A DNA stretch of 64,000 nt, taken from the NCBI GenBank assembly GCA_964360965.1, contig CAYHYM010000001.1, positions 8,878 to 72,877 of the forward strand, read 5' to 3'. A program made the translations under genes and the position numbers. Shown one piece after another: positions 13,311 to 64,000 of the stretch. Below the pieces are notes generated by a model. It was not told the DNA's origin, did no database searches, and saw nothing but the letters and a program-made list of their open reading frames with translations. Positions within the stretch are counted from its first letter, which is position 1, and each line of letters begins with the position of its first letter. The DNA is from an uncultured Gammaproteobacteria bacterium (GTDB lineage Bacteria > Patescibacteriota > Microgenomatia > Daviesbacterales > UBA10151).

Positions 13311-13874
13311 TTAATCATCACTGGTAATTACATAAGCATTATCCCAGCCTGGTCCGGTTATAGCTGCCCCATTACAATCTTTGACTAATCTTAAGCCGTT
13401 ACGATTAGCATCATTTTTATTTTCCAAAAGAGCCACTAAAATAAAAAATTGTCCTTTTTTCGCAGCACAAAGCGCACTATGGTAACCTCTGTAGCCATAG
13501 TAGTAGCCTGTTTCTAAATTATTCCAGACCGTACCTGGTCCGCTGTTAAGAGGGTCTGTGGGCATCCGGCTGATATAACTACTATCCAAATTTTTCTGGG
13601 TGTCTGTACAACCTGCAAAATCCTCATCAGTAATCCAACTACCACCACTGGCAGAAGATTTCCAGACATTATCACCGGGACAAGGATAGCGGTTATTTTT
13701 TTGATAATACAACTCTAGAGCCACCTTTACAGCTCTTAAATCATCTTTTCTTTTAGCATCCCGGGCATTTTTTTGAACACCGGAGTAGGCAGTCAAACCC
13801 ACCACTGATAAAATAGCCAAAATAGTGATAACAACTAAAAGTTCAACGAGGGTGAAACCGGATCTTGGCCGCAT
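13311..13874 (-). CDS. type IV pilin (PilA-like paralog)
   Basis: RSGFTLVELLVVITILAILSVVGLTAYSGVQKNARDAKRKDDL. Confidence 0.75.
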   Translation of the reverse strand: MRPRSGFTLVELLVVITILAILSVVGLTAYSGVQKNARDAKRKDDLRAVKVALELYYQKNNRYPCPGDNVWKSSASGGSWITDEDFAGCTDTQKNLDSSYISRMPTDPLNSGPGTVWNNLETGYYYGYRGYHSALCAAKKGQFFILVALLENKNDANRNGLRLVKDCNGAAITGPGWDNAYVITSDD

Positions 13875-41101: not shown

Positions 41102-41143
41102 AACAGTTTTCCAATTCTAACACAGCCATTCATTAGTAGTTTA

Positions 41144-41159
41144 GACACCTGGGGGGTGG
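41144..41159. repeat. REP-like element GACACCTGGGGGGTGG 3' of RAYT-2 (inverted partner at 41889-41904)
   Basis: The 14-mer ACACCTGGGGGGTG occurs here and as a reverse complement at 41889-41904. The pair brackets only the RAYT gene. Confidence 0.65.
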
Positions 41160-41179
41160 ATTAGGCAGGCATGTAGGGA

Positions 41180-41848
41180 TTATTCCAAAATAAGATGTTC
41201 AATCAGTTTTAATTTTCTTTGATAGTCAGCTTGATCAAATACAAAATGTTTATATTTTTCCCTGCTTCCAAACATATCCAACACTAAATTTGGTTCTAAA
41301 AAACCATCATTACCAGTAAGATAATTTGAAAAGGATGACCACGGATACTTTTCTAATTCACCAACAGTTCTAACTATAAAATTTGTATAAGGATTTAGGT
41401 GTATATATCTTGAAACATGAATAAACTGTTCATCAGTCTCTATCCTCTTGGCTTTAAATTGATCTAAAAATAAGGAGCCGTCCCGTTCATTCCTGGTATT
41501 ATGATAACGAGTATAACTATTTTGGAAATTACCTATAAATTTTGAAATACCATCCTCCATTTTCTGCTTTAACAAGAAATGAAAATGATTGGGCATTAAA
41601 CAAAAACAAATAATATCAACTAATTTTTCTGCCTGGTTCGTAATTTTGGTAATCTCTTTTTGTTTATCTTGTTCCAACTCCAAAAATTTAGATAATCTAA
41701 TAGGTGGGCTTGAAACTCTATAAAATTCAATTGCCAAAATTGCCCTTTGGTATTCTTTTTTTGTGGTAAAGGTGGGTTGCTTATTTATACCTCTGTTGTA
41801 AACATGGTAGATCTCATCCGTTACAAGTGGAATTTTTCTACCTGGCAT
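41180..41848 (-). CDS. REP-associated tyrosine transposase (RAYT) paralog
   Basis: HuH motif LMPNHFHFLLK. Tyr region SRYIHLNPYTNFIV...YPWSSFSNY. About 50% identical to the 11442 copy. Confidence 0.8.
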   Translation of the reverse strand: MPGRKIPLVTDEIYHVYNRGINKQPTFTTKKEYQRAILAIEFYRVSSPPIRLSKFLELEQDKQKEITKITNQAEKLVDIICFCLMPNHFHFLLKQKMEDGISKFIGNFQNSYTRYHNTRNERDGSLFLDQFKAKRIETDEQFIHVSRYIHLNPYTNFIVRTVGELEKYPWSSFSNYLTGNDGFLEPNLVLDMFGSREKYKHFVFDQADYQRKLKLIEHLILE

Positions 41849-41870
41849 AAAGTCATAATAGATTAATTAT

Positions 41871-41930
41871 CCCTGGGTGTCAACCTGAGACACCCCCCAG
41901 GTGTTTATAGGTGTTTATACAGGTGTTTAT
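41871..41930. repeat. REP-like hairpin (GGGTGTC aacctga GACACCC) plus three tandem AGGTGTTTAT decamers 5' of RAYT-2
   Basis: Seen directly: CCCTGGGTGTCAACCTGAGACACCCCCCAGGTGTTTATAGGTGTTTATACAGGTGTTTAT. Confidence 0.7.
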
Positions 41931-53264: not shown

Positions 53265-53832
53265 ACCTTTCTACATATTCCCCTGTTCTCGTGTCTATTT
53301 TTACTTTTTCCCCAACCTTAATAAACATGGGAACTTTGACCATCAGTCCATTATCCATGATGGCATCTTTGAAGACATTGGAAACTGTATTTCCCTTCTC
53401 CCCTGGTCCTGTTTCTGCTATTTCATATACCAGGCTCATGGGTAATTCCATTCCCAGAGCCTCTCCTTCTGATATTATTAAAATCACCTCTAGTCCGTCT
53501 TTTAAGTACTTTATCTGCTCACCTAACGCTTGTCCACCTAATGAGAACTGTTCAAAAGATACAGGATCCATGAAGTTAAATCCGCCAGCTGGCGGATCCC
53601 CATCTCTGTACAAAAACTGGGCCTTTTTCTTTTCTACATCAGCTTCATCTACTCTAGCTCCGGTAATAAAGGAGTTTTCTAAAACAGCCCCTGTACGTAT
53701 ATTCCTGACATTAAGCTTAATATTCCCGGATCCCCGCCCGGTTTTCATATGCTCATAGGTTAAAACCAGGAAAATATCTTTTCCCTCTTTAAAAAACGTC
53801 CCATTCCTTAACTCATTTACATTTAAAGCCAT
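53221..53832 (-). CDS. efp: elongation factor P
   Basis: MALNVNELRNGTFFKEGKDIFLVLTYEHMKTGRGSGNIKLNVRNIRTG. Internal ATG start chosen. Confidence 0.9.
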   Translation of the reverse strand: MALNVNELRNGTFFKEGKDIFLVLTYEHMKTGRGSGNIKLNVRNIRTGAVLENSFITGARVDEADVEKKKAQFLYRDGDPPAGGFNFMDPVSFEQFSLGGQALGEQIKYLKDGLEVILIISEGEALGMELPMSLVYEIAETGPGEKGNTVSNVFKDAIMDNGLMVKVPMFIKVGEKVKIDTRTGEYVERFSGQILKQKPPLPR

Positions 53833-54128: not shown

Positions 54129-54174
54129 CCGAGGTGTTTACACCGAGCTTGCCGAGGTGTTTACACCGAGCTTG
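54129..54174 (+). repeat. two tandem 23-bp copies of GCCGAGGTGTTTACACCGAGCTT immediately 5' of tRNA-Leu, duplicating the tRNA 5' nine bases
   Basis: Units at 54129-54151 and 54152-54174, with the tRNA beginning GCCGAGGTG at 54175. Each unit holds a GGTGT-TT-ACACC inverted repeat. Confidence 0.75.
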
Positions 54175-54257
54175 CCGAGGTGCTGGAATGGTAGACAGGC
54201 CAGTCTCAAAAACTGGTGATGGCAACATCATGAGGGTTCGACTCCCTCCCTCGGTAC
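54175..54257 (+). tRNA. tRNA-Leu (anticodon CAA), class II with long variable arm, no encoded CCA
   Basis: Hand-folded. Acceptor GCCGAGG/CCTCGGT, D arm CTGG-AATGGTAGA-CAG, anticodon stem CCAGT/ACTGG with loop CTCAAAA, 15-nt variable arm, T arm GAGGG-TTCGACT-CCCTC. Close to E. coli tRNA-Leu in architecture. Confidence 0.85.
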
Positions 54258-54382
54258 TCTGTGCGACTATATGACTTCGCTCGAACATATTTTACCAAAA
54301 ATTACTAACGCATTACTAGTCGGCGTCAACCTCAATCTCGTTTCCTACCTCATTACAAACTCCTACCTCAATCTTTCCATAC

Positions 54383-54500
54383 TTCGACTGGTTCGACTAC
54401 TTCGGTTACACTCAGTACAGGTACGCTCACCATAAATTCACTCACCACAAGTTCACTCAGGACAAGTCACTATCGCTTCCATGCTCAGGCTCGCACTTGT
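54383..54500. repeat. GTCGAAG/CTCAGTAC-family element downstream of tRNA-Leu
   Basis: TTCGACTGGTTCGACTACTTCGGTTACACTCAGTACAGGTACGCTCACCA is about 87% identical to 62450-62495, and the reverse complement matches 13235-13274. Confidence 0.55.
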
Positions 54501-54725
54501 GGGCCTTCACTCTCCTTACCTTAACTTTAATTTAATTCAAAGAGAAATTTTCGCCAGCATTTTGTCCTAACTATCTATTGTATTTATTTTGAGTAACTAA
54601 TTTACTTTAGAGTAAATATATTGTGCAATAGATATAAGTCTATGGAATTCCAGTCAACTACAGAACATTTTTAGGATCTAGTCCAAATTAGCATAATTTT
54701 TAATAAAATAGGATATAATCGGCAT

Positions 54726-55535
54726 ATGGGAATTGAAAACAGAAGCCATTTTGGCAGAGAAAGACTACGGATGCCAGATCGTGATTATAGCAGTCATGTT
54801 ATTGGTGATCGATGCCCGCTTTTAGGAGGACCTTCTGTTGAAGAAGATGTTGCAACCTTATGGAGAAACTTAAGATATGGTCGTTTTCTCAAAGAAGAAT
54901 TAAGAAAATTAAGGGAATATTTAAGTCTAAATTCGGGTTTGCCAGATAGTAGTGCTGACTTTAAAGCGGGAACTACTTTTGAGCCTGATGTCTACCCTCA
55001 TGGAACCATTATACTTGCAGGAAGAGAAGGAGACATATATATCACAACCAGAACCAGGGTTAGAAGGGAACCGTACAGGTCGCCTCTCCGAGGACCAGAC
55101 ATTGCTTCAGTTCTTTATGGAAGACCTGACTATTCAAAACCGGAATGGCAAGATAAAGGACTATGGTTAGAAAAAGAAGATTATAACGATAGGCGACTTT
55201 TCCGAGGCAACCATTTTGGAATTATTATTAGATTGCCAAATACTCCCCACAATCAAACAGTACTGCTACAAAATAGCTGGGAGGAAATTATGAAAGGCAA
55301 AGCGGACCTTAGATTTATTGAAGGTCAAGTGCCTATTAGTTCATGGAATCACTTAGTAACTTCGTATCTGGGGCCTGGATATAATCCTGATAAGAAAGTG
55401 TATACCCAAGATGATCTTTTCGATCGCTTTACTGGAATACAGATATTAGAGGTGGGAAAAGGTGTTAAAGAAGAAGTCAGAAGGCCCTTAGGAAGATTAT
55501 CTACCGCTATAAGACGGGCTTTGGGTTCTACATAG
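54726..55535 (+). CDS. hypothetical protein
   Basis: 269-aa ORF. No recognisable domain. Confidence 0.35.
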   Translation: MGIENRSHFGRERLRMPDRDYSSHVIGDRCPLLGGPSVEEDVATLWRNLRYGRFLKEELRKLREYLSLNSGLPDSSADFKAGTTFEPDVYPHGTIILAGREGDIYITTRTRVRREPYRSPLRGPDIASVLYGRPDYSKPEWQDKGLWLEKEDYNDRRLFRGNHFGIIIRLPNTPHNQTVLLQNSWEEIMKGKADLRFIEGQVPISSWNHLVTSYLGPGYNPDKKVYTQDDLFDRFTGIQILEVGKGVKEEVRRPLGRLSTAIRRALGST

Positions 55536-55543
55536 TACAATAA

Positions 55544-55882
55544 ATGAAAGAGGCTGGAGAGTTTCGAATATTCTGTCCTAAGGCTGAACAATTTATGCCT
55601 ATAAATGGTTCCTTTGAAGTTGACTTACCAGCTTTAGCCCGTGGAGAACAAATTTTTCTAGACTGTGACTATATGCGAGATGCTCAACCTGTCAGAGAAG
55701 GGAGATTTGGCTGTCTTAAAGTTAGTGCATCAGAAGTAAACCTTAATGATTTAATAACAGTTAATGGCAGTGTTAATGAAGAAAAAGGAACGCTTGATGC
55801 TCAGCTTAACTGTGGACATTGTGGGAATAATGTAGATCTATCATTTCCATATCAGGATGGTAATACCGATAGCCAGCAGTAA
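55544..55882 (+). CDS. hypothetical protein
   Basis: 112-aa ORF, 8 nt after the previous gene. Possible two-gene operon. Confidence 0.3.
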   Translation: MKEAGEFRIFCPKAEQFMPINGSFEVDLPALARGEQIFLDCDYMRDAQPVREGRFGCLKVSASEVNLNDLITVNGSVNEEKGTLDAQLNCGHCGNNVDLSFPYQDGNTDSQQ

Positions 55883-56265
55883 AATAATTATCAGAATCCA
55901 CCAAATATATTTTCTGGATGATTTTCTTTCCTCAATTGAAGAATAACTAAAAGGTTTCTTTTTCTCTTGCATTTTTAAAATCCATAATTTTTAGGTTAAT
56001 TTTAGCAGAAATTTAGATCAGAAGGTAGGGTAATTAGGGAGATTGGGGAGGTAAGGGAGATTGGCCCTCCTGCGCTGAAGCTTCGGTGGGTAAAGGTGAT
56101 TCAGGTTGTTGGGGTTGTTCAGGGAGATCAGGCGGATTAGATGGATCAGAAGGAGTAGAAGGAACAGAGTCTGATGATTGATTAGGGTCATCTGGCATAA
56201 ATTAAGTATACAACAAAACATTTCCTTCTTGACAAATATTATCAAACTAATATAATGATAATAGT

Positions 56266-56562
56266 ATGAACAGCACAATTTTACAAATCCCTGTTAATAA
56301 AAACCTTCGTGACCAAGCTGCTAGCAGAGCAGAAAGGATGGGTTTTTCTTCCCTTCAGGAGGTAGTCAGATTATTCTTAAATAAAATAGCCTTGGGAGAA
56401 ATTGATGTCAGCTTTGAGCCAACTGTGCAGTTATCCCCTAAGGCAATTAAAAGATATAACAAGATGATAGATGAGATTGAAGCTGGTAAAAATATTACTG
56501 GTCCCTTTACAGATGTAGGTGAAATGATGAAATATCTCCATGAAGGTAAAATTCCACGCTAA
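56266..56562 (+). CDS. RelB/DinJ-like antitoxin
   Basis: Small acidic protein with an RHH-like N-terminus. 3' end overlaps the toxin gene by 23 nt. Confidence 0.55.
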   Translation: MNSTILQIPVNKNLRDQAASRAERMGFSSLQEVVRLFLNKIALGEIDVSFEPTVQLSPKAIKRYNKMIDEIEAGKNITGPFTDVGEMMKYLHEGKIPR

Positions 56563-56806
56563 GTTTATTAAAAATTACCGAAAAAGAATTCTCAGTAATA
56601 AAAAACTTGATAATCAGGTCAAAATAAAAATTGAACAGTTTAAAATTAATCCTAATAATCCTATCTTAAAAGATCATAATTTAACTGGGACAAAGAAGGG
56701 ATTAAAAGCATTTTCACTTACTGGAGATATCAGAATAATTTATAGACCTTCTTCCGACAATGAAGTAGTTTTTATGGATATTGGATCACATAATCAAGTG
56801 TATTAA
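56540..56806 (+). CDS. RelE/ParE-family toxin (mRNA interferase)
   Basis: 88 aa: ...LKDHNLTGTKKGLKAFSLTGDIRIIYRPSSDNEVVFMDIGSHNQVY matches the RelE/YoeB family. Confidence 0.7.
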   Translation: MKVKFHAKFIKNYRKRILSNKKLDNQVKIKIEQFKINPNNPILKDHNLTGTKKGLKAFSLTGDIRIIYRPSSDNEVVFMDIGSHNQVY

Positions 56807-56811
56807 ATAAA

Positions 56812-57012
56812 TTATTTACTCCAGATTCCTCTTTTATTTTTCTTTGCTTCATCTTGGGCTACAAGTAATTCTTTCTGATATATCCAGGGTTTTTTGTGTC
56901 CCGCACCATACGGTACAGGACTATTTTGGTAGATAAGGGAGAAAGAAGTATTTTTAACATGAGGTAGGATATCTTCAAGTAAATTCTCTGAAACTGTAAT
57001 TAATTTAGACAT
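56812..57012 (-). pseudogene. chimeric remnant: repeated MSKLITVSENLLEDILPHVK module fused to a staphylococcal-nuclease-like C-terminal tail
   Basis: C-terminus KPWIYQKELLVAQDEAKKNKRGIWS resembles the end of SNase/thermonuclease. Too short for a functional SNase domain. Confidence 0.35.
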
Positions 57013-57063
57013 ATTTATTATATTACTCAATATTTAGTCTGATTTGCACTATTTATTCTCAAG

Positions 57064-57609
57064 TTGTATTATTCCATCATTATGGTAACTGAAGCTAGAC
57101 CATCAATAGAATTTTTTAGACAAAGCTTAACTCAGCAAAAGGATTTAGTGGTTGCGGGAGAGGTTAGCCGTTCAAGTGAGAACTGGGCAGAATGGAGAAT
57201 GGTTTTTGTAGCTCCAAAGAAACCTGCATATAGTCTAAGAGGAATTCAGGTTGTCTATAATAGATTCTTAAAGCAAGGTTTTAAAGTATGTAACAGCACA
57301 TATCAAGGTCAAGATTCTCTGCATTTGGGAGATATTGAATTTGATGAAGGTCAAATACCACAGGCAAGAAGATTACTTATATCTGTTTATCCAGATGAAG
57401 GTTTAGCAAGAGAAGCTTATGAGTGGGAGGCAGCATGGGTGGAAAGAGGATCTACATTTGAGCAGTTACGTGGGAAATATCGTGCAGAAGGAAGACAGGA
57501 GCCCTATGTGGGTTATGTTCCAAATGATGTTTTAAGAGAAAAATGGTTAAAACACCAAGTTAATCAGATTAAATCTGCTCTAACTTTTTGGAAGAGACCT
57601 GCAGCTTAA
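57064..57609 (+). CDS. hypothetical protein
   Basis: 181-aa ORF. No recognisable domain. Confidence 0.3.
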   Translation: MYYSIIMVTEARPSIEFFRQSLTQQKDLVVAGEVSRSSENWAEWRMVFVAPKKPAYSLRGIQVVYNRFLKQGFKVCNSTYQGQDSLHLGDIEFDEGQIPQARRLLISVYPDEGLAREAYEWEAAWVERGSTFEQLRGKYRAEGRQEPYVGYVPNDVLREKWLKHQVNQIKSALTFWKRPAA

Positions 57610-57687
57610 TATTCACTTCTTCAAAATAATCCCATAGTTTGATATATAGCTTCCTCTTGTATATAATCTCATTCAATAGTTAAACTT

Positions 57688-58890
57688 ATGGCCACTGAAC
57701 AAGGAATAATTAATTCTGGACAGGATTTTTTTAATTCACTTAGACTACGACATATTTATGGGGATCTGAATACAATTGAGGCTAAGATTAACAAGCGAAG
57801 CTTCTTGAGGTTAACTAATCCTGACCCAGACATTGTAGCAGCTGAAGCGGAAAGGATAATTCAAGCTGGACCACTCAGAGGCATTTCCTTTATTGAAGCA
57901 AATAAACAAGGTTACTTTGTTTATGAAGGTGCACCAGTTCCACTTGCTTGGTGGGCACCACATAGGTTCGAAAGACAGTTTCTTACCAGATTAGCTCATT
58001 CACTCACTGGTGAATTTCCTTTTATACTAGATGTTGCATGCGGAACTGGATTACTTGCTAAATTACTAGCAGCAGAAACAGATGCAAAAGTAGTTGGTTT
58101 AGATCCAGGAGAAATATTTAATGAGATGTCTGGTATTGATCGTTTACCAGATACTCCTGGCAATATATTGCTTAGAAAGAAAGATGTTTGGAAAGCAGTA
58201 AATACCTATGGTCCAAAGTATCCTTATCAATTAAACCGAGAAAGAAGAGAATTGTTAAAAAGACTAAAAAGGGAACCTGAAAAAGTATCTATTTTCTTAT
58301 CTCCAGAGTATCCTTACTCATCTTCTGCTAAAGAAGGGTTCAATCGACCCAATGAAGGAGTTGAGGAATTATCTGATGAAGTGAAAAGAATCCAGGAAAT
58401 AGCACCTCTTTACAAGGCTCCTTCCCCCATAGATTTAGTAATTTGCAGTTTTATGCCAGTTGGAGCTGATTTAACAGTACCTATCAGAGATGGCATTTAT
58501 CCTAAGGGTATTGTTTATGTTAGACAAATGCGTGGTGGGACCGGAACAGGTGATTATTTCTTATATGAATATCTAAATCCTGAAAGTTCTAAAAGATTAA
58601 GATACTCTCAGATAAGTTTTAATCCAGGTGAACATTACCAAGTAGTTGCCAGATGGCCAACCCCAAGTCAAAATAATTGGCATGCTAGTGAAACTAATAA
58701 ACTGCAAAGTCCTATGACTGCAGAAGTTGTGGTCCAACTGAGAAAGGATGTTGTTTTAGCCAAGACAGATAGGATCACTTGTCCAAGTTACCCTTGGGAT
58801 CAGGATATAGAAGATTTTCTTGGACAAGTATTGAGGAAGGAACTCTTTTTTGCTGGTATTGAACAAGCTACAAATTCCTTATTTGCTTAA
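57688..58890 (+). CDS. hypothetical protein with class I SAM-methyltransferase-like motif
   Basis: Motif I ILDVACGTGLLAKLLA followed by acidic VVGLDPGE. Confidence 0.45.
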   Translation: MATEQGIINSGQDFFNSLRLRHIYGDLNTIEAKINKRSFLRLTNPDPDIVAAEAERIIQAGPLRGISFIEANKQGYFVYEGAPVPLAWWAPHRFERQFLTRLAHSLTGEFPFILDVACGTGLLAKLLAAETDAKVVGLDPGEIFNEMSGIDRLPDTPGNILLRKKDVWKAVNTYGPKYPYQLNRERRELLKRLKREPEKVSIFLSPEYPYSSSAKEGFNRPNEGVEELSDEVKRIQEIAPLYKAPSPIDLVICSFMPVGADLTVPIRDGIYPKGIVYVRQMRGGTGTGDYFLYEYLNPESSKRLRYSQISFNPGEHYQVVARWPTPSQNNWHASETNKLQSPMTAEVVVQLRKDVVLAKTDRITCPSYPWDQDIEDFLGQVLRKELFFAGIEQATNSLFA

Positions 58891-58899
58891 TATTCACAA

Positions 58900-58949
58900 C
58901 TTCCACCCTTCGATACTTCGACAAGCTCAGTACTCAGGGTAAACCTGAA
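58900..58949. repeat. 50-bp deletion derivative of the 108-bp palindromic element at 60725-60832, 10 nt after a stop codon
   Basis: CTTCCACCCTTCGATACTTCGACAAG + CTCAGTACTCAGGGTAAACCTGAA; identical to the ends of the 60725 copy. Confidence 0.65.
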
Positions 58950-58977
58950 TTAGCTATTTTTGTGCTAGAATTGCTTT

Positions 58978-59349
58978 ATGGCTAAGAAAGTCATAAGCTA
59001 TGACCTTTTATTTGAAGTCAAAGATACTCTTGGTAGAAGGATACACACCACAAAAGATTACTGGCAGAAGATTAAAACCTTAAAGCATCGAGAATTAAAA
59101 TATGGTATTAATGAAGTTAAGACTACACTGACAAAACCAGATGAGATAAGAAGAAGTGTGACTGATTCTACTATTTTACTCTATGCACAAAGACAGCAAA
59201 ATTATGATATACTTATTGTGGCAGTTAAGGTTTTAAATGGTGAGGGTTTCTTAGTGACAGTTTATCAGACTAAGGATTATAAAAAGAAAGGAGAACTTAT
59301 ATGGCCAAAGCAAAAACAGAGGCTCGCCCTGAGCGAAGCCGAAGGGTAA
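58978..59349 (+). CDS. DUF4258-like putative toxin
   Basis: About 120 aa: HTTKDYWQKIKTLKHRELKY...ILLYAQRQQNYDILIVAVKV. Paired with a DUF2283-like gene. Confidence 0.45.
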   Translation: MAKKVISYDLLFEVKDTLGRRIHTTKDYWQKIKTLKHRELKYGINEVKTTLTKPDEIRRSVTDSTILLYAQRQQNYDILIVAVKVLNGEGFLVTVYQTKDYKKKGELIWPKQKQRLALSEAEG

Positions 59350-59588
59350 AAATTTATCTTGATCCTGTAGCAAATACCTTTAATATTTGGTGGGATGATC
59401 CTAAAAAGGCTTATTCCTCTGAAGAGGTAGATTCTCCAAACAGGAATGACGTAATTATTAAAGATAAACAAGGCAAACCAATTAGTTTGGAAGTGATTGG
59501 TATATTTCCAAGTGAACTAAATGTGGCAGAGAAGCTTAAAAGGACAATTGGAACTCCCAAAGAACCACTGCTTCTTCAATCAATTTAA
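59301..59588 (+). CDS. DUF2283-like small protein (putative cognate antitoxin)
   Basis: VKIYLDPVANTFNIWWDD...LEVIGIF resembles DUF2283. Overlaps the upstream gene. Confidence 0.5.
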   Translation: MAKAKTEARPERSRRVKIYLDPVANTFNIWWDDPKKAYSSEEVDSPNRNDVIIKDKQGKPISLEVIGIFPSELNVAEKLKRTIGTPKEPLLLQSI

Positions 59589-59746
59589 TCCTTAATCTTT
59601 TTCTCTAAAGGTGTTCCTTTAACATGAGGCAGGATATCTTTTAATAGATTCTCTGAGACTGTAATTAATTTGGGCATGACACAATTTTAGTCTATTAGAT
59701 CTGGACAAAATGATAAAGTTGTGTAAAATAAACTAAAGTTTAATTT

Positions 59747-60715
59747 ATGACTCAAGAAACAAGAGCAGCTTTACTATTCCCAGGTCAAGGATTACCTTCT
59801 AAAGATATTGTTGCATGTTATCAAAGACTCAATAGTATTGATTCTACTCATATACAACAAAGATTAGGACGAGCCCAAGATGCAATAAATAAAGTTCATG
59901 GAAGTGCTGCTTTTGATATTAATATTGCTTTGCAGGATGAAAAATCTCCAAGCTTTACTCAGACTTCTTTTGTACAACCTGTGGTTTATACCCTTAGCGT
60001 CCTTACCTCTGAAATTACTGATGCTCACGGTATTGCCAGAATTGCTCCCAGTTTTGTGGCTGGGCATAGTTTAGGTGAGTACTCTGCTCTAACCAGGGCC
60101 AAAGTCTTTGATTTTGAACAAGGAGTTGATCTTGTTACATACCGAGGTTTGGTAATGGAAGAGGCATGTCAGAAAACCAAAAGCGTTTTACTTAGAATCA
60201 GTGGGTTAGCAGAAGATAGAGTAAGGGAACTTTGTCAACCAGGAGGCACAAGAATTGCTGAAGTTGCTTTGATCAATGCTCCAACATTGATAGTGGTAGG
60301 TTGTGCAGCAGAAGCTGCAACTGAAGTAGATAGATTAGCCAAAGAAGCTGGAGCTAGAGGTGCAACTGATTTAGGAACAGCTGGGGCTTTTCATACCACA
60401 TTTATGGAAGAAGCAGCTGACAAATTGGATAAAAAACTATTTGAATATGACTTTAAACACCCAGAAATTCCAGTTGTAACTAATTTTACAGGAAAACCTA
60501 TATATCATAGTATGCAAGCACAAGATCATCTAATTCAAGGCATGATCAATCCAGTTCAGTGGGCTAAGGTATTAGAAACTTTACAGACATCAGGTGTCAC
60601 GGTTTTTGCTGAAGTTGGCCCTGGAACTTCACTGGCTGCTTTAAATAGGATTAACAATATTCCTGAGGATAGAACAATAAATGTTCTTAACTGGTTTGAA
60701 CCACGAGGTACTTAA
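59747..60715 (+). CDS. fabD: malonyl CoA-acyl carrier protein transacylase
   Basis: FPGQG, active-site GHSLGEYSALT, conserved R (TYRGL) and GAFHTTFMEEAADKL all match FabD. Confidence 0.8.
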   Translation: MTQETRAALLFPGQGLPSKDIVACYQRLNSIDSTHIQQRLGRAQDAINKVHGSAAFDINIALQDEKSPSFTQTSFVQPVVYTLSVLTSEITDAHGIARIAPSFVAGHSLGEYSALTRAKVFDFEQGVDLVTYRGLVMEEACQKTKSVLLRISGLAEDRVRELCQPGGTRIAEVALINAPTLIVVGCAAEAATEVDRLAKEAGARGATDLGTAGAFHTTFMEEAADKLDKKLFEYDFKHPEIPVVTNFTGKPIYHSMQAQDHLIQGMINPVQWAKVLETLQTSGVTVFAEVGPGTSLAALNRINNIPEDRTINVLNWFEPRGT

Positions 60716-60724
60716 TATGTACAG

Positions 60725-60832
60725 CTTCCACCCTTCGATACTTCGACAAGACTTCGACGGTGAGTCTTTCGACCCTGAGCTCAAGACCGAAGGGCTCAGT
60801 CGAACCGCTCAGTACTCAGGGTAAACCTGAAG
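60725..60832. repeat. 108-bp composite palindromic element (GTCGAAG/CTCAGTAC family) 10 nt after the fabD stop
   Basis: Internal inverted pairs TTCGACCCTGAGC/GCTCAGTCGAA and TCTTTCGACC/GACCGAAGGG. The ends are identical to the 58900 copy. Confidence 0.7.
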
Positions 60833-60979
60833 CTGTTATTAAAAAGAGATTAGAACCTACTTCATAATAAGCTGCTTCATTTCCTCCATCAGAATATGCT
60901 TTAGAGCCTAAAAATTTAAGTAGTTTGATATACAAAATATACCTTGTATTTTAACAATTAGGATAATAAGATAGATACC

Positions 60980-61336
60980 ATGGATGAAAGTAAACTTAAA
61001 ACAATAGTTGAAGAAGTGGTAAATAAAGCCGTGGATCCAATCAAAAAACAGCTTGAAGATCCTAAAACTGGTTTAGCAGCAATCAATAGAAGGCTTGATG
61101 GTGTAGGAGGACAGTTGAATGATCCAGATACAGGATTAAAAAGAATTAATGAGAGATTAGATGCTAATACAGCAGCAGTCGTGGAACTTGAGAGTACAAT
61201 AAAAGGCTACGCTGATTCATACCAGACAAATGATGCTAATATTAGGAAAGTGGAAAAAAGATTGGAAACTTTGGAAGAGGATGCAAGAGTAAATGTCCCT
61301 TCTGAGTTACAACTTGCTCCTCAATCTGACCTTTAA
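60980..61336 (+). CDS. hypothetical coiled-coil protein
   Basis: 118-aa ORF with repeated DP(K/D)TGL...IN(R/E)RLD heptad-like units. Confidence 0.3.
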   Translation: MDESKLKTIVEEVVNKAVDPIKKQLEDPKTGLAAINRRLDGVGGQLNDPDTGLKRINERLDANTAAVVELESTIKGYADSYQTNDANIRKVEKRLETLEEDARVNVPSELQLAPQSDL

Positions 61337-61350
61337 TGCAAAACCTTTCA

Positions 61351-62661
61351 TCAGTTGTGTTCAATATATGCTTTGTAGCCAACTAGCTTTTTGTTATCCC
61401 CAGAGCCAGAGTAGATATTTTTAACTCCGAAGGTTAAAAAGAGATCATCTTTGGAATAGGTAATGGTAGTACCAGTATTATCTTGGGAATTTAAAGTCTC
61501 TTTAAAGTTAGAATTGGTAAGTTGATTTGTATAGTAATCCAAAAAGGCTTGAGGAATTGATAATAATTGTTCAGATTCCAGATAAATACCTTCCTCCTCA
61601 ATTCTTCTTTTGCCTGAAGTAAAAAGTAATACCTTCTTTTGGGTTTTCTCCCATTTAATATCTGAGTAGAGTTTAGGGAGTCCCGTACCATTCGGTACAG
61701 GATTAAAAGTAGTAAGTCCGCCTGTTGGAGAAACAGGGCTAGGTGAAGGCGTAGTCTCAAAAGAGATAATCTCGGAGACCTCTATTAAATTAGGGGTGGG
61801 GGTTAAGTTGCCCTTAATTTGAACTTTCATGCCTTCAAAATCTGATAAGTTAACATTTTTTGATGCAGGGTTAAGGGTCCAGAGGGTTTTATTTTTATCA
61901 TTTGCTTGCAGGTAATATCCTGCTGAGGATTTTTGGATTATTCCCTGGGCAGTAATACCTCTGTGTAAGATGGGAGAGAAATTAGGGAATAGTTTACCAA
62001 GACCATAGTTTATACCTGATTTAAAACCTATCCCAAAACCTCCCAACCCCCCGCCCACTCCTGCCATGATAATAATTAAAGCTAAAACAGGGATTCTTAA
62101 GGTAATCATCTGTCTTTTGAGCAGTTTATTTAAAAAAGCTCTTAAATAAGTAACAGGATTAGTTAAGAAAAAACCAAACAAAGGAGGATCTTTTTTAGAA
62201 GAAGGTTGGGTATTTTGATTTATTTCTATAATGGGAGGAAGTCCCGCACCAGACGGTGCAGGATTAGGGGTATTTGGCTCGCCTGGTGGCGAAGCTGGGA
62301 CAGGAGGAGGGGTAGTCTGTTCAACCTTTTCTTCATGTTCAGGGATAAATCTTCCATGTTCATCTCTTTTTTGATGGGAAGCCACAGCAGAATGGACTAA
62401 GTTTTCTGAAACAGGATATTGAGGGTAATCAGGGATATTGGGAGAATTTGGTTCGATTACTTCGACTGTGCTCAGTACAGGTACACTCACCACAGGTGGG
62501 GTATTAGGGGCTGAAGGAGTAGGTGTTTGAGGAAAGGTTGGATTAACAGATTGTTGGTAGGGATTATCGGGATCTACAGGATTAGTATGAGGGTTAAAGT
62601 TTGACCCAAAAGAAGGAGGGGGATTATTTTGATCCGGAGGATCTTTAGGCAGATTATCCAT
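61351..62661 (-). CDS. hypothetical single-pass membrane protein with Pro-rich N-terminus
   Basis: Pro/Asn-rich N-terminal 170 aa, one TM, C-terminal domain. Carries an in-frame GTCGAAG-family repeat (62450-62499) encoding VPVLSTVEVIEPN. Confidence 0.4.
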   Translation of the reverse strand: MDNLPKDPPDQNNPPPSFGSNFNPHTNPVDPDNPYQQSVNPTFPQTPTPSAPNTPPVVSVPVLSTVEVIEPNSPNIPDYPQYPVSENLVHSAVASHQKRDEHGRFIPEHEEKVEQTTPPPVPASPPGEPNTPNPAPSGAGLPPIIEINQNTQPSSKKDPPLFGFFLTNPVTYLRAFLNKLLKRQMITLRIPVLALIIIMAGVGGGLGGFGIGFKSGINYGLGKLFPNFSPILHRGITAQGIIQKSSAGYYLQANDKNKTLWTLNPASKNVNLSDFEGMKVQIKGNLTPTPNLIEVSEIISFETTPSPSPVSPTGGLTTFNPVPNGTGLPKLYSDIKWEKTQKKVLLFTSGKRRIEEEGIYLESEQLLSIPQAFLDYYTNQLTNSNFKETLNSQDNTGTTITYSKDDLFLTFGVKNIYSGSGDNKKLVGYKAYIEHN

Positions 62662-62816
62662 GAAATTAGTATAGAACTAATTTGCAGATTAAAGCAATAA
62701 ATTGATTAGAGGGTGAGTTTAGGTGATGCAACTGTGTATATTGATAGGATATTAGTTTCTCCTAAAATTTTAAGCAGAACGTAAGAACGTAAATTTTAAA
62801 AATTGTACGTGGTCAA

Positions 62817-63353
62817 TTAAGGCTTCATTATGAAAGGCTCAAGGTCTTCTCTTTTTAAAAGAGTAGATTCTGAACAATTTGCTACCATAGCCACACTTGG
62901 CATGTGTGAGAAACCTACATATTCAACAAACTTACCTTTTTCTTTGGCTTTCTTAACTGCCGGAAGAAGATCTGTATCTGATGAAACTAAAGTAATATGG
63001 TCGCAAAGATTTTCATAGGTTGCGACCAAGATATCTACGGCTATATTGACATCTACTCCTTTCTCGTGCATTTTGCCTTTTGATTTTAATAAATATCCCA
63101 ATGAGTATCTGAATTTGTGCTTTTTTAAGTGTGCTAATAGCTTTTGTTGTTTGTCAAACAACCCTTGAACATGTTTTGTGCGATTAGTTCTGACTGCTCC
63201 CACATAATATATACACTCTACTAATTCTCCTTTTTTAGAAAGACTTTTGGCAAAAGAAGAAAAATTAAACGCTAACTCATTATGAAGTTTTAGATCTTTA
63301 AGCTTGAAGTAGAAGTTACTACCATCAATTAACACTATATAACGTTGTTTAGT
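62817..63353 (-). CDS. NYN/LabA-like (PIN-fold) domain protein
   Basis: VLIDGSNFYF...GVDVNIAVDIL...LVSSDTDLLPAV matches the NYN domain. Confidence 0.65.
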   Translation of the reverse strand, partial: TKQRYIVLIDGSNFYFKLKDLKLHNELAFNFSSFAKSLSKKGELVECIYYVGAVRTNRTKHVQGLFDKQQKLLAHLKKHKFRYSLGYLLKSKGKMHEKGVDVNIAVDILVATYENLCDHITLVSSDTDLLPAVKKAKEKGKFVEYVGFSHMPSVAMVANCSESTLLKREDLEPFIMKP

Positions 63354-63569
63354 CATTGAGACCAATTATATAGCAAAGCTTGGGATAAAAAAATCCTGCA
63401 AATGCCTTGCGGCCTTGCAGGAGAGTTAAGTAATTGTATACTAACAAAATATTGGCAATATGTCAAGAAAAAATTGTAGGTGAGCAGTTGGCAGTGAAAA
63501 CTTTATAGCAGAAACAAGAAGATATGTAAAGCAAATTGCATATAGGCTCGTAAATCACTATAATTGCAG

Positions 63570-64000
63570 CATGGCTATTGAAAGATTTATTAAAGGCAGA
63601 ATTATTGGCCCATATTTTGAAAGAGTAAGAAGGCAAAGGGAACAATCACAGCAACAGGTACAAGTGGAAACTGCTCGCGGAGAAATTAATGCTCTTTTAG
63701 AGGATATATTTCCCAATGACACTGTTAAGGAATATACATTCAAAGATCCTGATATAGATTGGCCTCAACAGCTACCTTCATTAGTAAACTTACACCCAGA
63801 AATTACTGATAAGGATTTAATATCAATCTCAGTTGATAGAGAATACTTAGGATGTCCCACTCTGCATATTAGTATGTATTTTGGGTATTTTACAGATCCG
63901 CCTTATTATACAGTAACATCCTTGTTAGACAACAATCTTAGCAGTATTGAGGTTTATTCTGTAGCGACTACTGGAGATGCAATGACCCAAAGGTATAATA
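63570..64000 (+). CDS. hypothetical protein, 5' part (runs off window end)
   Basis: ATG at 63570. Frame is open through position 64000 (about 143 codons). Confidence 0.35.

What the first reader, a model, noticed from the sequence alone, without database searches (positions are those of the whole stretch)
54258..60832. Accessory island 3' of tRNA-Leu: two toxin-antitoxin pairs, nuclease remnant, MTase-like protein, uncharacterised two-gene operon and an orphan fabD
After a 470-bp AT-rich spacer containing a repeat element comes a run of genes unrelated to the core functions on either side. Two unknown proteins (269 and 112 aa) are separated by 8 nt. A DinJ/RelB-like + RelE-like pair overlaps by 23 nt. 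There is a chimeric SNase-tail remnant, a 181-aa unknown, and a 400-aa protein with a SAM-methyltransferase motif. A DUF4258-like + DUF2283-like pair follows. fabD is then followed by the 108-bp palindromic element. The block is a candidate defence or addiction island. The 269/112-aa pair and the 181/400-aa pair are the best places to look for an undescribed defence function.
Basis: partly seen in the sequence, partly recalled or inferred. Interest (0 to 1): 0.55.

Follow-up and report, generated by a model that had tools for sequence, protein, structure and literature searches.

The report
Patchwork gene island beside tRNA-Leu
A groundwater Daviesbacteria (CPR) genome carries about 13 kb of lineage-specific DNA wedged between a leucine tRNA gene and dnaB, made of two toxin-antitoxin cassettes, orphan genes, gene fragments and short repeats; it is a real accessory island of an ordinary kind, and nothing shows that it is an anti-phage system.

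Summary
The window comes from a Candidatus Daviesbacteria MAG from Hainich groundwater.

**Island status.** In 13 related genomes dnaB lies 5-600 nt from tRNA-Leu(CAA). Here about 13.3 kb intervenes. The island therefore runs from 54258 past fabD, through the coiled-coil, proline-rich and NYN genes, to about 3.5 kb beyond the window end. Its genes have low GC3 (0.28 against 0.37, p=0.0004).

**What is absent.** There is no integrase, no duplicated tRNA end and no phage gene.

**What it looks like.** The block is a mosaic:
- A RelB-like/YafQ-RelE pair with a perfect promoter.
- A BECR-like/DUF2283-like cassette that recurs in at least 5 other genomic contexts.
- Four gene remnants.
- REP-like repeats that sit on stop codons.

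**The two "pairs".** Neither the 269/112-aa pair nor the 181/400-aa pair is a conserved pair.
- The 269-aa protein belongs to a very rare family (6 members among 1.8 billion representatives) with no recognisable fold.

**Verdict.** Accessory/addiction island supported; defence island not supported.

The parts
54174..54257 (+). tRNA-Leu(CAA). This is the conserved left anchor of the island.
   Evidence: ARAGORN and Rfam, 55 bits. The same tRNA lies next to efp in 16 relatives.
54380..54436 (+). Copy A of the REP-like repeat element. Its core is TTCGAYTACTTCG..GCTCAGTAC. It lies in the 45%-GC half of the spacer.
54637..54690 (+). 3' remnant of an M23 peptidase gene (…VYGIPVNYRTFLGSSPN*). Homology to L021 breaks at about 54636.
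   Evidence: Alignment to L021, frame translation, and Pfam Peptidase_M23 at 3.6e-9 on the L021 product.
54726..55535 (+). 269-aa orphan protein (u269). It belongs to a very rare family with invariant H24, D28, C30, W207, H209 and D230. A TATAAT box lies 7 nt before the ATG.
55544..55882 (+). 112-aa Cys-containing orphan (u112), 8 nt after u269. No homologue was found, and it is not present beside u269 homologues.
56034..56198 (-). Proline-rich 54-aa low-complexity ORF. It is length-variable between assemblies and is probably a remnant.
   Evidence: and 12 differences in L024.
56266..56562 (+). RelB/DinJ-like antitoxin candidate. A TTGACA-16-TATAAT site lies at 56229-56256.
   Evidence: Pfam RelB 13.7 bits and TIGR02384 18.8 bits, both below cut-off. 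The promoter site matches 12 of 12 positions.
56540..56806 (+). RelE/YafQ-family toxin. It overlaps the antitoxin gene by 23 nt.
   Evidence: Pfam YafQ_toxin 35.3 bits (cut-off 30) and TIGR02385 32.9 bits (cut-off 27.9). PHROGs RelE-like at 4.4e-7.
56812..57012 (-). Chimeric remnant. The N-terminus of a 55-aa small gene (56942-57012) is fused to the last ~22 residues of an SNase-type nuclease.
57082..57609 (+). 175-aa orphan (181 aa if read from the TTG at 57064). The family has 4 members. One member follows pyrG elsewhere.
57688..58890 (+). 400-aa class I SAM-methyltransferase-fold protein of a small family. It has its own TTGATA-17-TATAAT site at 57639-57667.
58886..58958 (+). Copy B of the repeat element. 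It starts at the stop codon of the methyltransferase gene.
58978..59349 (+). 123-aa BECR-fold-like (PBECR2/3-like) putative toxin. It is the first gene of a mobile two-gene cassette.
59301..59588 (+). 95-aa DUF2283-like putative antitoxin. It overlaps the toxin gene by 49 nt.
59585..59677 (-). Second, truncated copy (30 codons) of the 55-aa small gene.
59747..60715 (+). Malonyl-CoA:ACP transacylase-family gene (FabD or trans-AT-like). It has no fab or ACP neighbours and the lowest GC3 in the island (0.198).
60711..60840 (+). Copy C of the repeat element, carrying a 57-nt palindromic insert. It starts at the fabD stop codon and ends in a terminator-like hairpin at 60816-60830.
60980..63365 (.). 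Continuation of the island inside the window. It holds a coiled-coil 118-aa gene (+), a proline-rich 436-aa membrane protein (-) with repeat copy D at 62449-62492, and a NYN-domain protein at 62817-63365 (-). The island goes on about 3.5 kb past the window end to dnaB.

Best explanation
The finding is the left half of a lineage-specific flexible island of about 13.3 kb. The island has accumulated between tRNA-Leu(CAA) and dnaB in one Candidatus Daviesbacteria lineage.

It is not a self-mobile integrative element. It is a patchwork built from small independent modules, each with its own promoter-like site. The junctions between modules are marked by truncated genes and by a REP-like repeat that sits on stop codons and supplies a terminator-like hairpin.

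**The modules in the window**
- Two type II toxin-antitoxin cassettes: RelB-like with RelE/YafQ, and BECR-like with DUF2283-like.
- A stand-alone SAM-methyltransferase-fold gene.
- A stand-alone FabD-family acyltransferase gene.
- Three orphan genes.

**Shown**
- The insertion relative to 13 relatives.
- The compositional shift.
- The mosaic structure with remnants.
- The cassette nature of the second toxin-antitoxin pair.
- The absence of an integrase, a duplicated tRNA end and phage genes.

**Inferred**
- The block grew by repeated recombination of imported DNA at a permissive site.
- The toxin-antitoxin modules act as RNase toxins held in check by labile antitoxins, and so stabilise the block as addiction modules.
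- The cargo enzymes are not parts of one system.
For: **Synteny**
- The order lgt, 147-aa membrane gene, efp, tRNA-Leu and the whole of window 42.5-53.8 kb are collinear in 19 relatives. Nothing to the right of 54257 is.
- In 13 relatives the order is NTP-transferase, 245 aa, 147 aa, MBL, DnaB, tRNA-Leu, with dnaB 5-600 nt from the tRNA.
- This genome has the same dnaB block, but its end lies at window-equivalent ~67.5 kb.

**Composition and reproducibility**
- GC3 is 0.28 in island genes against 0.37 in the left flank (Mann-Whitney p=0.0004). It is 0.26 for the three genes to the right of fabD.
- Three independent assemblies give the same sequence.

**Mosaic structure**
- The M23 tail, the SNase tail fused to a small gene, a second truncated copy of that gene, and a proline-rich fragment.
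- L026 shares the SNase tail, the small gene and the methyltransferase in the same order. It differs by a BrnT/BrnA insertion and by lacking the 181-aa gene.
- The BECR-like/DUF2283-like cassette is 69-86% identical in 6 contigs with at least 5 different flanks. Nucleotide homology is confined to about 600 bp.
- The YafQ/RelE toxin passes its thresholds.
- Promoter consensus sites lie just upstream of relB, the methyltransferase gene and fabD.
- Four of the five repeat copies in the window lie in 54.3-62.5 kb.

**Literature**
- Genomic islands are already reported in large numbers in groundwater Patescibacteria (PMC12455944).
Against: - Only +/-10 kb around efp was examined in the relatives, so island genes could exist elsewhere in those genomes.
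- The closest relative (L001, EF-P 86% identical) has no tRNA within its contig and is uninformative.
- The right end of the island lies outside the window. It is inferred from a second assembly contig that overlaps the window at 98.7% identity.
- Toxin and antitoxin activities are untested. Both antitoxins and the second toxin score below curated family cut-offs.
- The mode of acquisition is inference only.
Confidence: 0.75

Rival explanations
1. Anti-phage defence island. On this reading the toxin-antitoxin pairs act as abortive-infection modules. The unknown 269/112-aa and 181/400-aa genes, or the methyltransferase, would form undescribed defence systems.
For: - Toxin-antitoxin modules and variable, tRNA-adjacent regions often accompany defence genes (established knowledge).
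- The 400-aa protein gives a weak mad2 hit at E=0.0067 over motif I only.
Against: - PADLOC finds nothing for 9 of the 10 proteins in the range.
- The pairs are not conserved. u112 is absent beside u269 homologues.
- The methyltransferase family stands alone next to recA/gpsA, next to a kinase gene, or next to BrnTA. It has its own promoter-like site.
- There is no nuclease partner and no (D/N/S)PP(Y/F) motif after strand 4 (CSFMP instead).
- There are no viral relatives.
- The NYN hit is to a widespread domain.
Confidence: 0.1
2. Decayed integrative element. On this reading a prophage or integrative island inserted once into the 3' end of tRNA-Leu by a tyrosine integrase and has since lost its integrase and att site.
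For: - It sits immediately 3' of a tRNA gene.
- Its composition is atypical.
- It contains several gene remnants, which indicate decay.
Against: - No integrase, recombinase or transposase domain occurs in any gene from 54258 to dnaB.
- No copy of the tRNA 3' end occurs in the window or in L022, even allowing 3 mismatches.
- No PHROGs structural or replication hits.
- Relatives show small, different housekeeping-type inserts at the same junction: MgtE-like, kinases, NUDIX, NT5C. This fits a permissive intergenic site better than an att site.
- The modules have separate homology boundaries.
Confidence: 0.08
3. Not an insertion at all. On this reading the block is either an ancestral region lost from all sampled relatives, or a mis-assembly that joins unrelated contigs at repeats.
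For: - Replicate contigs break at or near the repeat after fabD and inside efp. Their tips diverge by about 15-18%.
- Coverage is low, about 5x according to the contig names.
Against: - L024 spans efp, tRNA, the whole range and on into the proline-rich gene. It has no differences outside its first 250 nt and one low-complexity stretch.
- L025 confirms the left junction, and L022 confirms the path to dnaB.
- Loss in 13 relatives spanning 61-80% EF-P identity would need many independent deletions. It would also leave the low GC3 unexplained.
Confidence: 0.05

Closest known systems
tRNA-adjacent genomic islands / flexible regions of plasticity, including the genomic islands reported in groundwater Patescibacteria (PMC12455944)
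   Same: It sits next to a tRNA gene, is absent from related genomes, has atypical composition, and carries orphan genes and toxin-antitoxin modules.
   Different: It has no integrase and no direct repeat of the tRNA end. It is built from very small independent modules with many gene remnants. The same dnaB/tRNA junction holds small, unrelated, housekeeping-type inserts in other Daviesbacteria.
RelBE / DinJ-YafQ type II toxin-antitoxin systems
   Same: The antitoxin gene comes first and overlaps an 88-aa toxin gene by 23 nt. The toxin passes the YafQ_toxin and RelE_StbE thresholds. A strong promoter consensus lies directly upstream.
   Different: The antitoxin is only weakly RelB/DinJ-like and scores below cut-offs. 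Activity is untested.
DUF4258 (BECR-fold) / DUF2283 toxin-antitoxin pairs and the PBECR nuclease families
   Same: The order is toxin first with overlapping genes. The small second protein shows DUF2283-like similarity. The pair behaves as a mobile two-gene cassette.
   Different: There is no DUF4258 match. Only sub-threshold PBECR2/PBECR3 similarity is seen (best 6.4e-4 among homologues). The DUF2283 match is also below the gathering score.
REP/BIME-type intergenic repeats (with RAYT transposases)
   Same: A short structured repeat occurs in several copies, placed right after stop codons with a terminator-like hairpin. An IS200/Y1-type transposase gene flanked by inverted repeats lies elsewhere in the window (41180-41848).
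   Different: The inverted repeats flanking that transposase gene do not match this repeat. One copy lies inside a coding region. Mobilisation was not tested.
FabD malonyl-CoA:ACP transacylase and trans-AT enzymes such as DisD
   Same: Pfam Acyl_transf_1 is above threshold, and the GHSLGE nucleophile and AFHT motifs are present. The best solved relatives are DisD (3.4e-37) and FabD (1e-33 to 1e-35).
   Different: The score is below the TIGR00128 equivalog cut-off (198 against 261). There are no ACP or fab neighbours. GC3 is the lowest in the island.
Class I SAM-dependent methyltransferases
   Different: The protein is 400 aa. It has a disordered insert of about 50 residues and extra N- and C-terminal elements. 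No specific subfamily can be assigned, there is no restriction partner, and Pfam scores are below cut-off.

Membership tests
Classical integrase-mediated tRNA genomic island | Inserted at the 3' end of a tRNA gene and absent from related genomes | tested here: met
   The block starts 1 nt after tRNA-Leu. In 13 relatives dnaB lies there instead.
Classical integrase-mediated tRNA genomic island | Integrase or recombinase gene at one end | tested here: not met
   No such Pfam domain occurs in any gene from 54258 to dnaB.
Classical integrase-mediated tRNA genomic island | Direct repeat of the tRNA 3' end at the far boundary | tested here: not met
   The 23-nt tRNA end has no second match with up to 3 mismatches, in the window or in L022.
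Classical integrase-mediated tRNA genomic island | Composition different from the host core | tested here: met
   GC3 is 0.28 against 0.37, p=0.0004.
Anti-phage defence island | Presence of recognised defence-system proteins | tested here: not met
   PADLOC gives 0 hits for 9 of 10 proteins and one motif-only hit at E=0.0067. The only solid hit is the NYN protein to HEC-09, outside the stated range.
RelBE / DinJ-YafQ type II toxin-antitoxin | Toxin belongs to the RelE/YafQ family | tested here: met
   YafQ_toxin 35.3 bits (cut-off 30). TIGR02385 32.9 bits (cut-off 27.9).
RelBE / DinJ-YafQ type II toxin-antitoxin | Antitoxin belongs to the RelB/DinJ family | tested here: inconclusive
   RelB 13.7 bits (cut-off 22.4). 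TIGR02384 18.8 bits (cut-off 45.65).
RelBE / DinJ-YafQ type II toxin-antitoxin | Adjacent co-directional small genes, antitoxin first, forming one unit | tested here: met
   The genes overlap by 23 nt. A 12-of-12 promoter consensus lies 10 nt before the first ATG.
RelBE / DinJ-YafQ type II toxin-antitoxin | Toxin arrests growth and the antitoxin neutralises it | not testable with these tools
   This needs expression experiments.
DUF4258 / DUF2283 toxin-antitoxin | Toxin matches DUF4258 | tested here: not met
   No DUF4258 hit at E<=1 in the protein or its 6 homologues. Only PBECR2/3 below cut-off.
DUF4258 / DUF2283 toxin-antitoxin | Second protein matches DUF2283 | tested here: inconclusive
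   17.7 bits (cut-off 23). 5 of 6 homologues match below threshold, best 0.0018.
DUF4258 / DUF2283 toxin-antitoxin | The two genes are inherited and moved as one unit | tested here: met
   Both genes are present in 6 contigs with at least 5 different flanks. Homology is limited to the cassette.
FabD (ACP S-malonyltransferase) | Scores as equivalog and sits with fatty-acid synthesis genes | tested here: not met
   TIGR00128 198.4 bits (cut-off 260.9). The neighbours are a toxin-antitoxin cassette and a coiled-coil gene.
FabD (ACP S-malonyltransferase) | Acyltransferase domain with the GHSxG nucleophile and a catalytic His | tested here: met
   Acyl_transf_1 64.8 bits (cut-off 32.7). GHSLGE and AFHT align with DisD.
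Class I SAM-dependent methyltransferase (400-aa protein) | Rossmann-type methyltransferase fold with a glycine-rich motif I | tested here: met
Restriction-modification methyltransferase (400-aa protein) | (D/N/S)PP(Y/F) motif and a linked restriction or specificity gene | tested here: not met
   The conserved motif after strand 4 is CSFMP. There is no nuclease or S-subunit neighbour in four contexts.
Staphylococcal-nuclease family (72-aa ORF) | Complete SNase domain | tested here: not met
   Only profile positions 86-107 of 107 are matched, at 17.7 bits (cut-off 21). It is a remnant.

The most novel reading that the evidence does not exclude
The 269-aa protein would found an undescribed protein family with a possible Cys/His/Asp active or metal-binding site.

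- The family has six members among 1.8 billion representatives.
- H24, D28, C30, W207, H209 and D230 are invariant.
- The start looks leaderless.
- There is no recognisable fold.

Together with the unique Cys-containing 112-aa protein 8 nt downstream, it might form a new two-component module, such as a toxin/effector with a partner, or a regulator. One distant member sits 8 nt downstream of an ECF sigma-factor gene, the position usually held by an anti-sigma factor.
Probability: 0.1. Interest if true: 0.55.

Novelty: new member of a known kind. Interest (0 to 1): 0.3.

Why it matters
CPR/Patescibacteria genomes are tiny and streamlined, so where and how they take up extra genes is of interest.

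- This locus is a clean example, anchored by synteny. A permissive junction between tRNA-Leu and dnaB has filled with small cassettes without any integrase.
- It shows that toxin-antitoxin cassettes move between these genomes as discrete units of about 600 bp.
- It flags three orphan families and one small methyltransferase family for structural or biochemical follow-up.
- It does not open a new class of system.

Tried and rejected
**Defence and phage origin**
- PADLOC, PHROGs, Pfam and NCBIfam scans of all ten proteins gave no defence or phage assignment.
- The viral-contig scans for the 269-aa and 400-aa families were empty.

**The 269-aa protein**
- The word-indexed search found one homologue. 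The exhaustive HMMER search found five further representatives, one of them a repeat-protein false match.
- The PDB profile search gave nothing better than E=0.17.
- The BFVD search had TM scores of 0.22 or less and is meaningless. The afdb50 library was unavailable.

**The 112-aa and 181-aa proteins**
- 112-aa protein: no PDB match and no relatives in JGI metagenome contigs.
- 181-aa protein: three close homologues only, no PDB match and no family.

**Pairing hypotheses**
- The 181/400 operon idea is rejected. L026 has the methyltransferase without the 181-aa gene, and L033 has the 181-aa homologue after pyrG.
- The 269/112 operon idea is rejected as a conserved unit.

**Integration site**
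- The att-site search with the tRNA 3' end was negative.
- The exact repeat motif is absent from all related loci.

**Other**
- Rfam found only the tRNA in 52-64 kb.
- The first look-up of the NYN protein failed because the start codon I chose differs from the called one.

Full report
**Source and observation**

The window is from a Candidatus Daviesbacteria (Microgenomates, CPR) metagenome-assembled genome from Hainich groundwater. EF-P next to the finding is 61-86% identical to EF-P of 19 Daviesbacteria loci. Identical island proteins occur on contigs named Hain_H51.

tRNA-Leu(CAA) is at 54174-54257.

Family scans gave the following results.
- The 88-aa protein is a YafQ/RelE toxin, above the Pfam and TIGR02385 cut-offs.
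- The 98-aa protein is RelB/DinJ-like, below cut-offs.
- The 72-aa minus-strand ORF matches only the last 22 positions of the SNase profile.
- The 400-aa protein matches methyltransferase motif I only.
- The 123-aa protein gives sub-threshold PBECR2/PBECR3 matches, and no DUF4258 match.
- The 95-aa protein gives a sub-threshold DUF2283 match.
- The 322-aa protein has an Acyl_transf_1 domain. It scores 198 bits on TIGR00128 fabD, below the cut-off of 261.
- The 269-, 112- and 181-aa proteins match nothing.

The spacer is 468 bp. Only its right 205 bp is AT-rich at 25% GC.

**Is it an island, and where does it end?**

Translated comparison of 19 related loci shows that window 42.5-53.8 kb is collinear with them. 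This stretch includes the lgt, 147-aa membrane and efp genes. Nothing to the right of the tRNA matches.

The relatives do share a conserved order on the far side of the tRNA. It runs NTP-transferase, a 245-aa gene, a 147-aa gene, an MBL-fold hydrolase and DnaB. The dnaB stop codon lies 5-40 nt from tRNA-Leu in five genomes and within about 0.6 kb in six more.

A second assembly contig of the same organism (L022) overlaps window 60943-64000 at 98.7% identity. It carries the same NTP-transferase-to-DnaB block. In that contig dnaB ends at a position equivalent to window ~67,520.

About 13.3 kb therefore separates the tRNA from dnaB in this genome. The right half holds:
- the coiled-coil 118-aa gene;
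- the proline-rich 436-aa membrane protein;
- a NYN-domain protein;
- a 225-aa methyltransferase;
- five further unknowns.

None of these right-half genes occurs at this junction in the relatives; the only match anywhere in their loci is a homologue of the coiled-coil gene in L013, on the far side of efp.

Composition agrees with an insertion. Island genes have GC3 of 0.28 against 0.37 for 62 genes on the left (Mann-Whitney p=0.0004). The three genes to the right of fabD have 0.26.

A caveat is that only +/-10 kb around efp was available for each relative.

**How it got there**

- No integrase, recombinase or transposase domain occurs anywhere between the tRNA and dnaB.
- The tRNA 3' end has no second copy in the window or in L022.
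- PHROGs and the viral-contig scans give nothing phage-like.
- The same junction is variable in other Daviesbacteria, but with small housekeeping-type genes: MgtE-like, P-loop kinases, NUDIX, NT5C and uridine kinase. L015 has a 4.7-kb insert, and L004 and L005 show no dnaB within 6 kb.
- Most relatives also carry an M1 aminopeptidase gene between the tRNA and efp, which is missing here.

The site therefore behaves as a permissive recombination spot rather than an att site.

**Mosaic anatomy**

The range contains four remnants.
1. The last 18 codons of an M23 peptidase gene lie at 54637-54690. In contig L021 an M23 peptidase gene, whose 3' end is all that lies on that contig, precedes the closest homologue of the 269-aa gene. 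Homology to the window stops at about 54636.
2. A proline-rich 54-codon ORF lies at 56034-56198 and varies in length between assemblies.
3. The SNase tail is fused to the first ~24 codons of a 55-aa small gene.
4. A second copy of that small gene, cut to 30 codons, lies at 59585-59677.

Contig L026 carries a 75%-identical methyltransferase. It has the SNase tail, the intact small gene and the methyltransferase in the same order. It differs in having a BrnT/BrnA toxin-antitoxin pair inserted between the first two, and it has no 181-aa gene. Such differences are what one expects of cassette-by-cassette turnover.

A repeat element with core TTCGAYTACTTCGAC..GCTCAGTAC occurs five times in the window, four of them between 54.3 and 62.5 kb.
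- Copies B and C begin exactly at the stop codons of the methyltransferase gene and fabD. They end in the hairpin TCAGGGTAAACCTGA followed by a T-rich run.
Its fold has a z-score of -3.3.
- Copy D lies inside the proline-rich gene.

Promoter consensus sites lie just upstream of three genes:
- relB: TTGACA-16-TATAAT, 12 of 12 positions;
- the methyltransferase gene: TTGATA-17-TATAAT;
- fabD: TGGACA-16-TAAAAT.

The modules therefore look independently transcribed. The total count of promoter-like sites is not above chance, so only the placement of the best three carries weight.

**The toxin-antitoxin pairs**

The first pair meets the toxin-family, gene-order and overlap criteria. The antitoxin assignment is weak.

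The second pair is better supported by behaviour than by profile scores. Both genes recur together at 69-86% amino-acid identity in six JGI metagenome contigs with at least five unrelated flanks. Nucleotide similarity starts about 30 nt before the first gene and stops at the stop codon of the second.

Among these homologues, PBECR2/3 is matched by 3 of 7 toxins (best 6.4e-4). DUF2283 is matched by 5 of 6 partners (best 0.0018). I call this pair a BECR-like/DUF2283-like cassette, not a DUF4258 member.

*The 269-aa protein.* It belongs to a genuine but very rare family. There is one homologue among 5.8 billion clustered sequences, and five true members appear in the exhaustive search of 1.8 billion representatives. 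Thirty columns are invariant, including H24, D28, C30, W207, H209 and D230.

Its neighbours differ in every context examined:
- an M23 peptidase gene;
- a convergent membrane gene;
- aminotransferase and SHMT genes;
- an ECF sigma-factor gene 8 nt upstream, for the most distant member.

The 112-aa gene is absent from all three informative downstream regions. It has no detectable relatives.

*The 181-aa and 400-aa proteins.* The 181-aa protein is 175 aa from the ATG that gene callers used. It has three close homologues, one of them following pyrG.

The 400-aa protein has 17 homologues. They sit in unrelated neighbourhoods:
- between gpsA and recA;
- after a Ser/Thr kinase gene;
- beside BrnTA and KilA-N genes.

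There is no restriction partner and no amino-methyltransferase motif. The protein looks like a stand-alone enzyme, and nothing ties it to defence.

**fabD**

The protein keeps the GHSLGE nucleophile and AFHT motifs. It is about equally close to the trans-AT DisD (3.4e-37) and to FabD structures (1e-33 to 1e-35). It has no fab or ACP neighbour and the lowest GC3 in the island (0.198). It is therefore cargo of the island, not its boundary.

**Reliability of the assembly**

Replicate contigs L024 and L025 are 100% identical to the window across the range. All differences are bunched in the first ~250 nt of contig tips:
- inside efp at 53528-53777;
- at 60943-61192 in the coiled-coil gene, for L022;
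- in the proline-rich low-complexity stretch.

The tips match no sampled relative better than they match the window. This points to co-occurring strain variants at the borders, not to a chimeric join. Read-level data would be needed to say more.

**Verdict**

The block is a real, lineage-specific accessory island of a known kind. Genomic islands are already reported in large numbers in groundwater Patescibacteria (PMC12455944).
- Its addiction-module content is supported.
- A defence role is not supported.
- The proposed two-gene systems are not conserved units.
- The right boundary is about 6.7 kb further on than stated.

The most unusual item is the rare 269-aa family, whose function remains open.

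Noticed in passing
window 41180-41848 (-), with inverted repeats at 41142-41184 and 41865-41907: An IS200/Y1-type tyrosine transposase gene (Pfam Y1_Tnp 5.7e-9) is flanked by a 43-nt inverted repeat. It has low GC3 (0.25). It could be a RAYT-like element. Its flanking repeats differ from the repeat family in the island.
   Followed up: partly
window 10.2-15.7 kb (for example 13311-13874, -): A cluster of at least six genes shares a repeated N-terminal segment (direct-repeat families D1, D3 and D6). One gene that was tested carries the N-terminal methylation motif of type IV pilins / T2SS pseudopilins (N_methyl 9.5e-9).
   Followed up: partly
L041 5453-6759 and L042 234-1540: The most distant member of the 269-aa family (P0025) starts 8 nt after an ECF sigma-70 gene. 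That is the position usually held by an anti-sigma factor. This is seen in one of five contexts only, and there is no zinc-binding anti-sigma motif.
   Followed up: partly
window 53528-53777 and 60943-61192 (tips of L024, L025 and L022): Replicate-assembly contigs are identical to the window inside the island but diverge by about 15-18% in their last ~250 nt, inside efp and in the coiled-coil gene. The two efp tips are only 89% identical to each other. This suggests several co-occurring strains that share the island, or recombination breakpoints in the flanks.
   Followed up: partly
window 54713-54728, 56251-56268; L021 170-185: A TATAAT box lies only 7-10 nt before the ATG of the 269-aa gene (conserved in its homologue) and of relB. 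This suggests leaderless or near-leaderless transcripts.
   Followed up: no
L002 7247-9841 and equivalents in L003-L005, L007-L009, L011-L014: Most Daviesbacteria relatives carry an M1-family aminopeptidase gene of about 850 aa (Peptidase_M1 9.5e-93) between tRNA-Leu and efp. It is absent here and in L006, where the gap is 330-400 nt.
   Followed up: partly
window 62817-63365 (-): A NYN-domain protein (Pfam 2.7e-20) hits the PADLOC candidate HEC-09 (2e-16).
   Followed up: partly
window 62449-62492, inside the 436-aa gene (61351-62661, -): One copy of the REP-like repeat lies within the coding region of the proline-rich membrane protein and is translated as ...VPVLSTVEVIEP.... The repeat has either invaded the gene or the ORF runs across it.
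   Followed up: no
L040 3001-3120: A 40-codon fragment of the BECR-like toxin gene occurs without its partner in another metagenome contig. It is a decayed copy of the mobile cassette.
   Followed up: no
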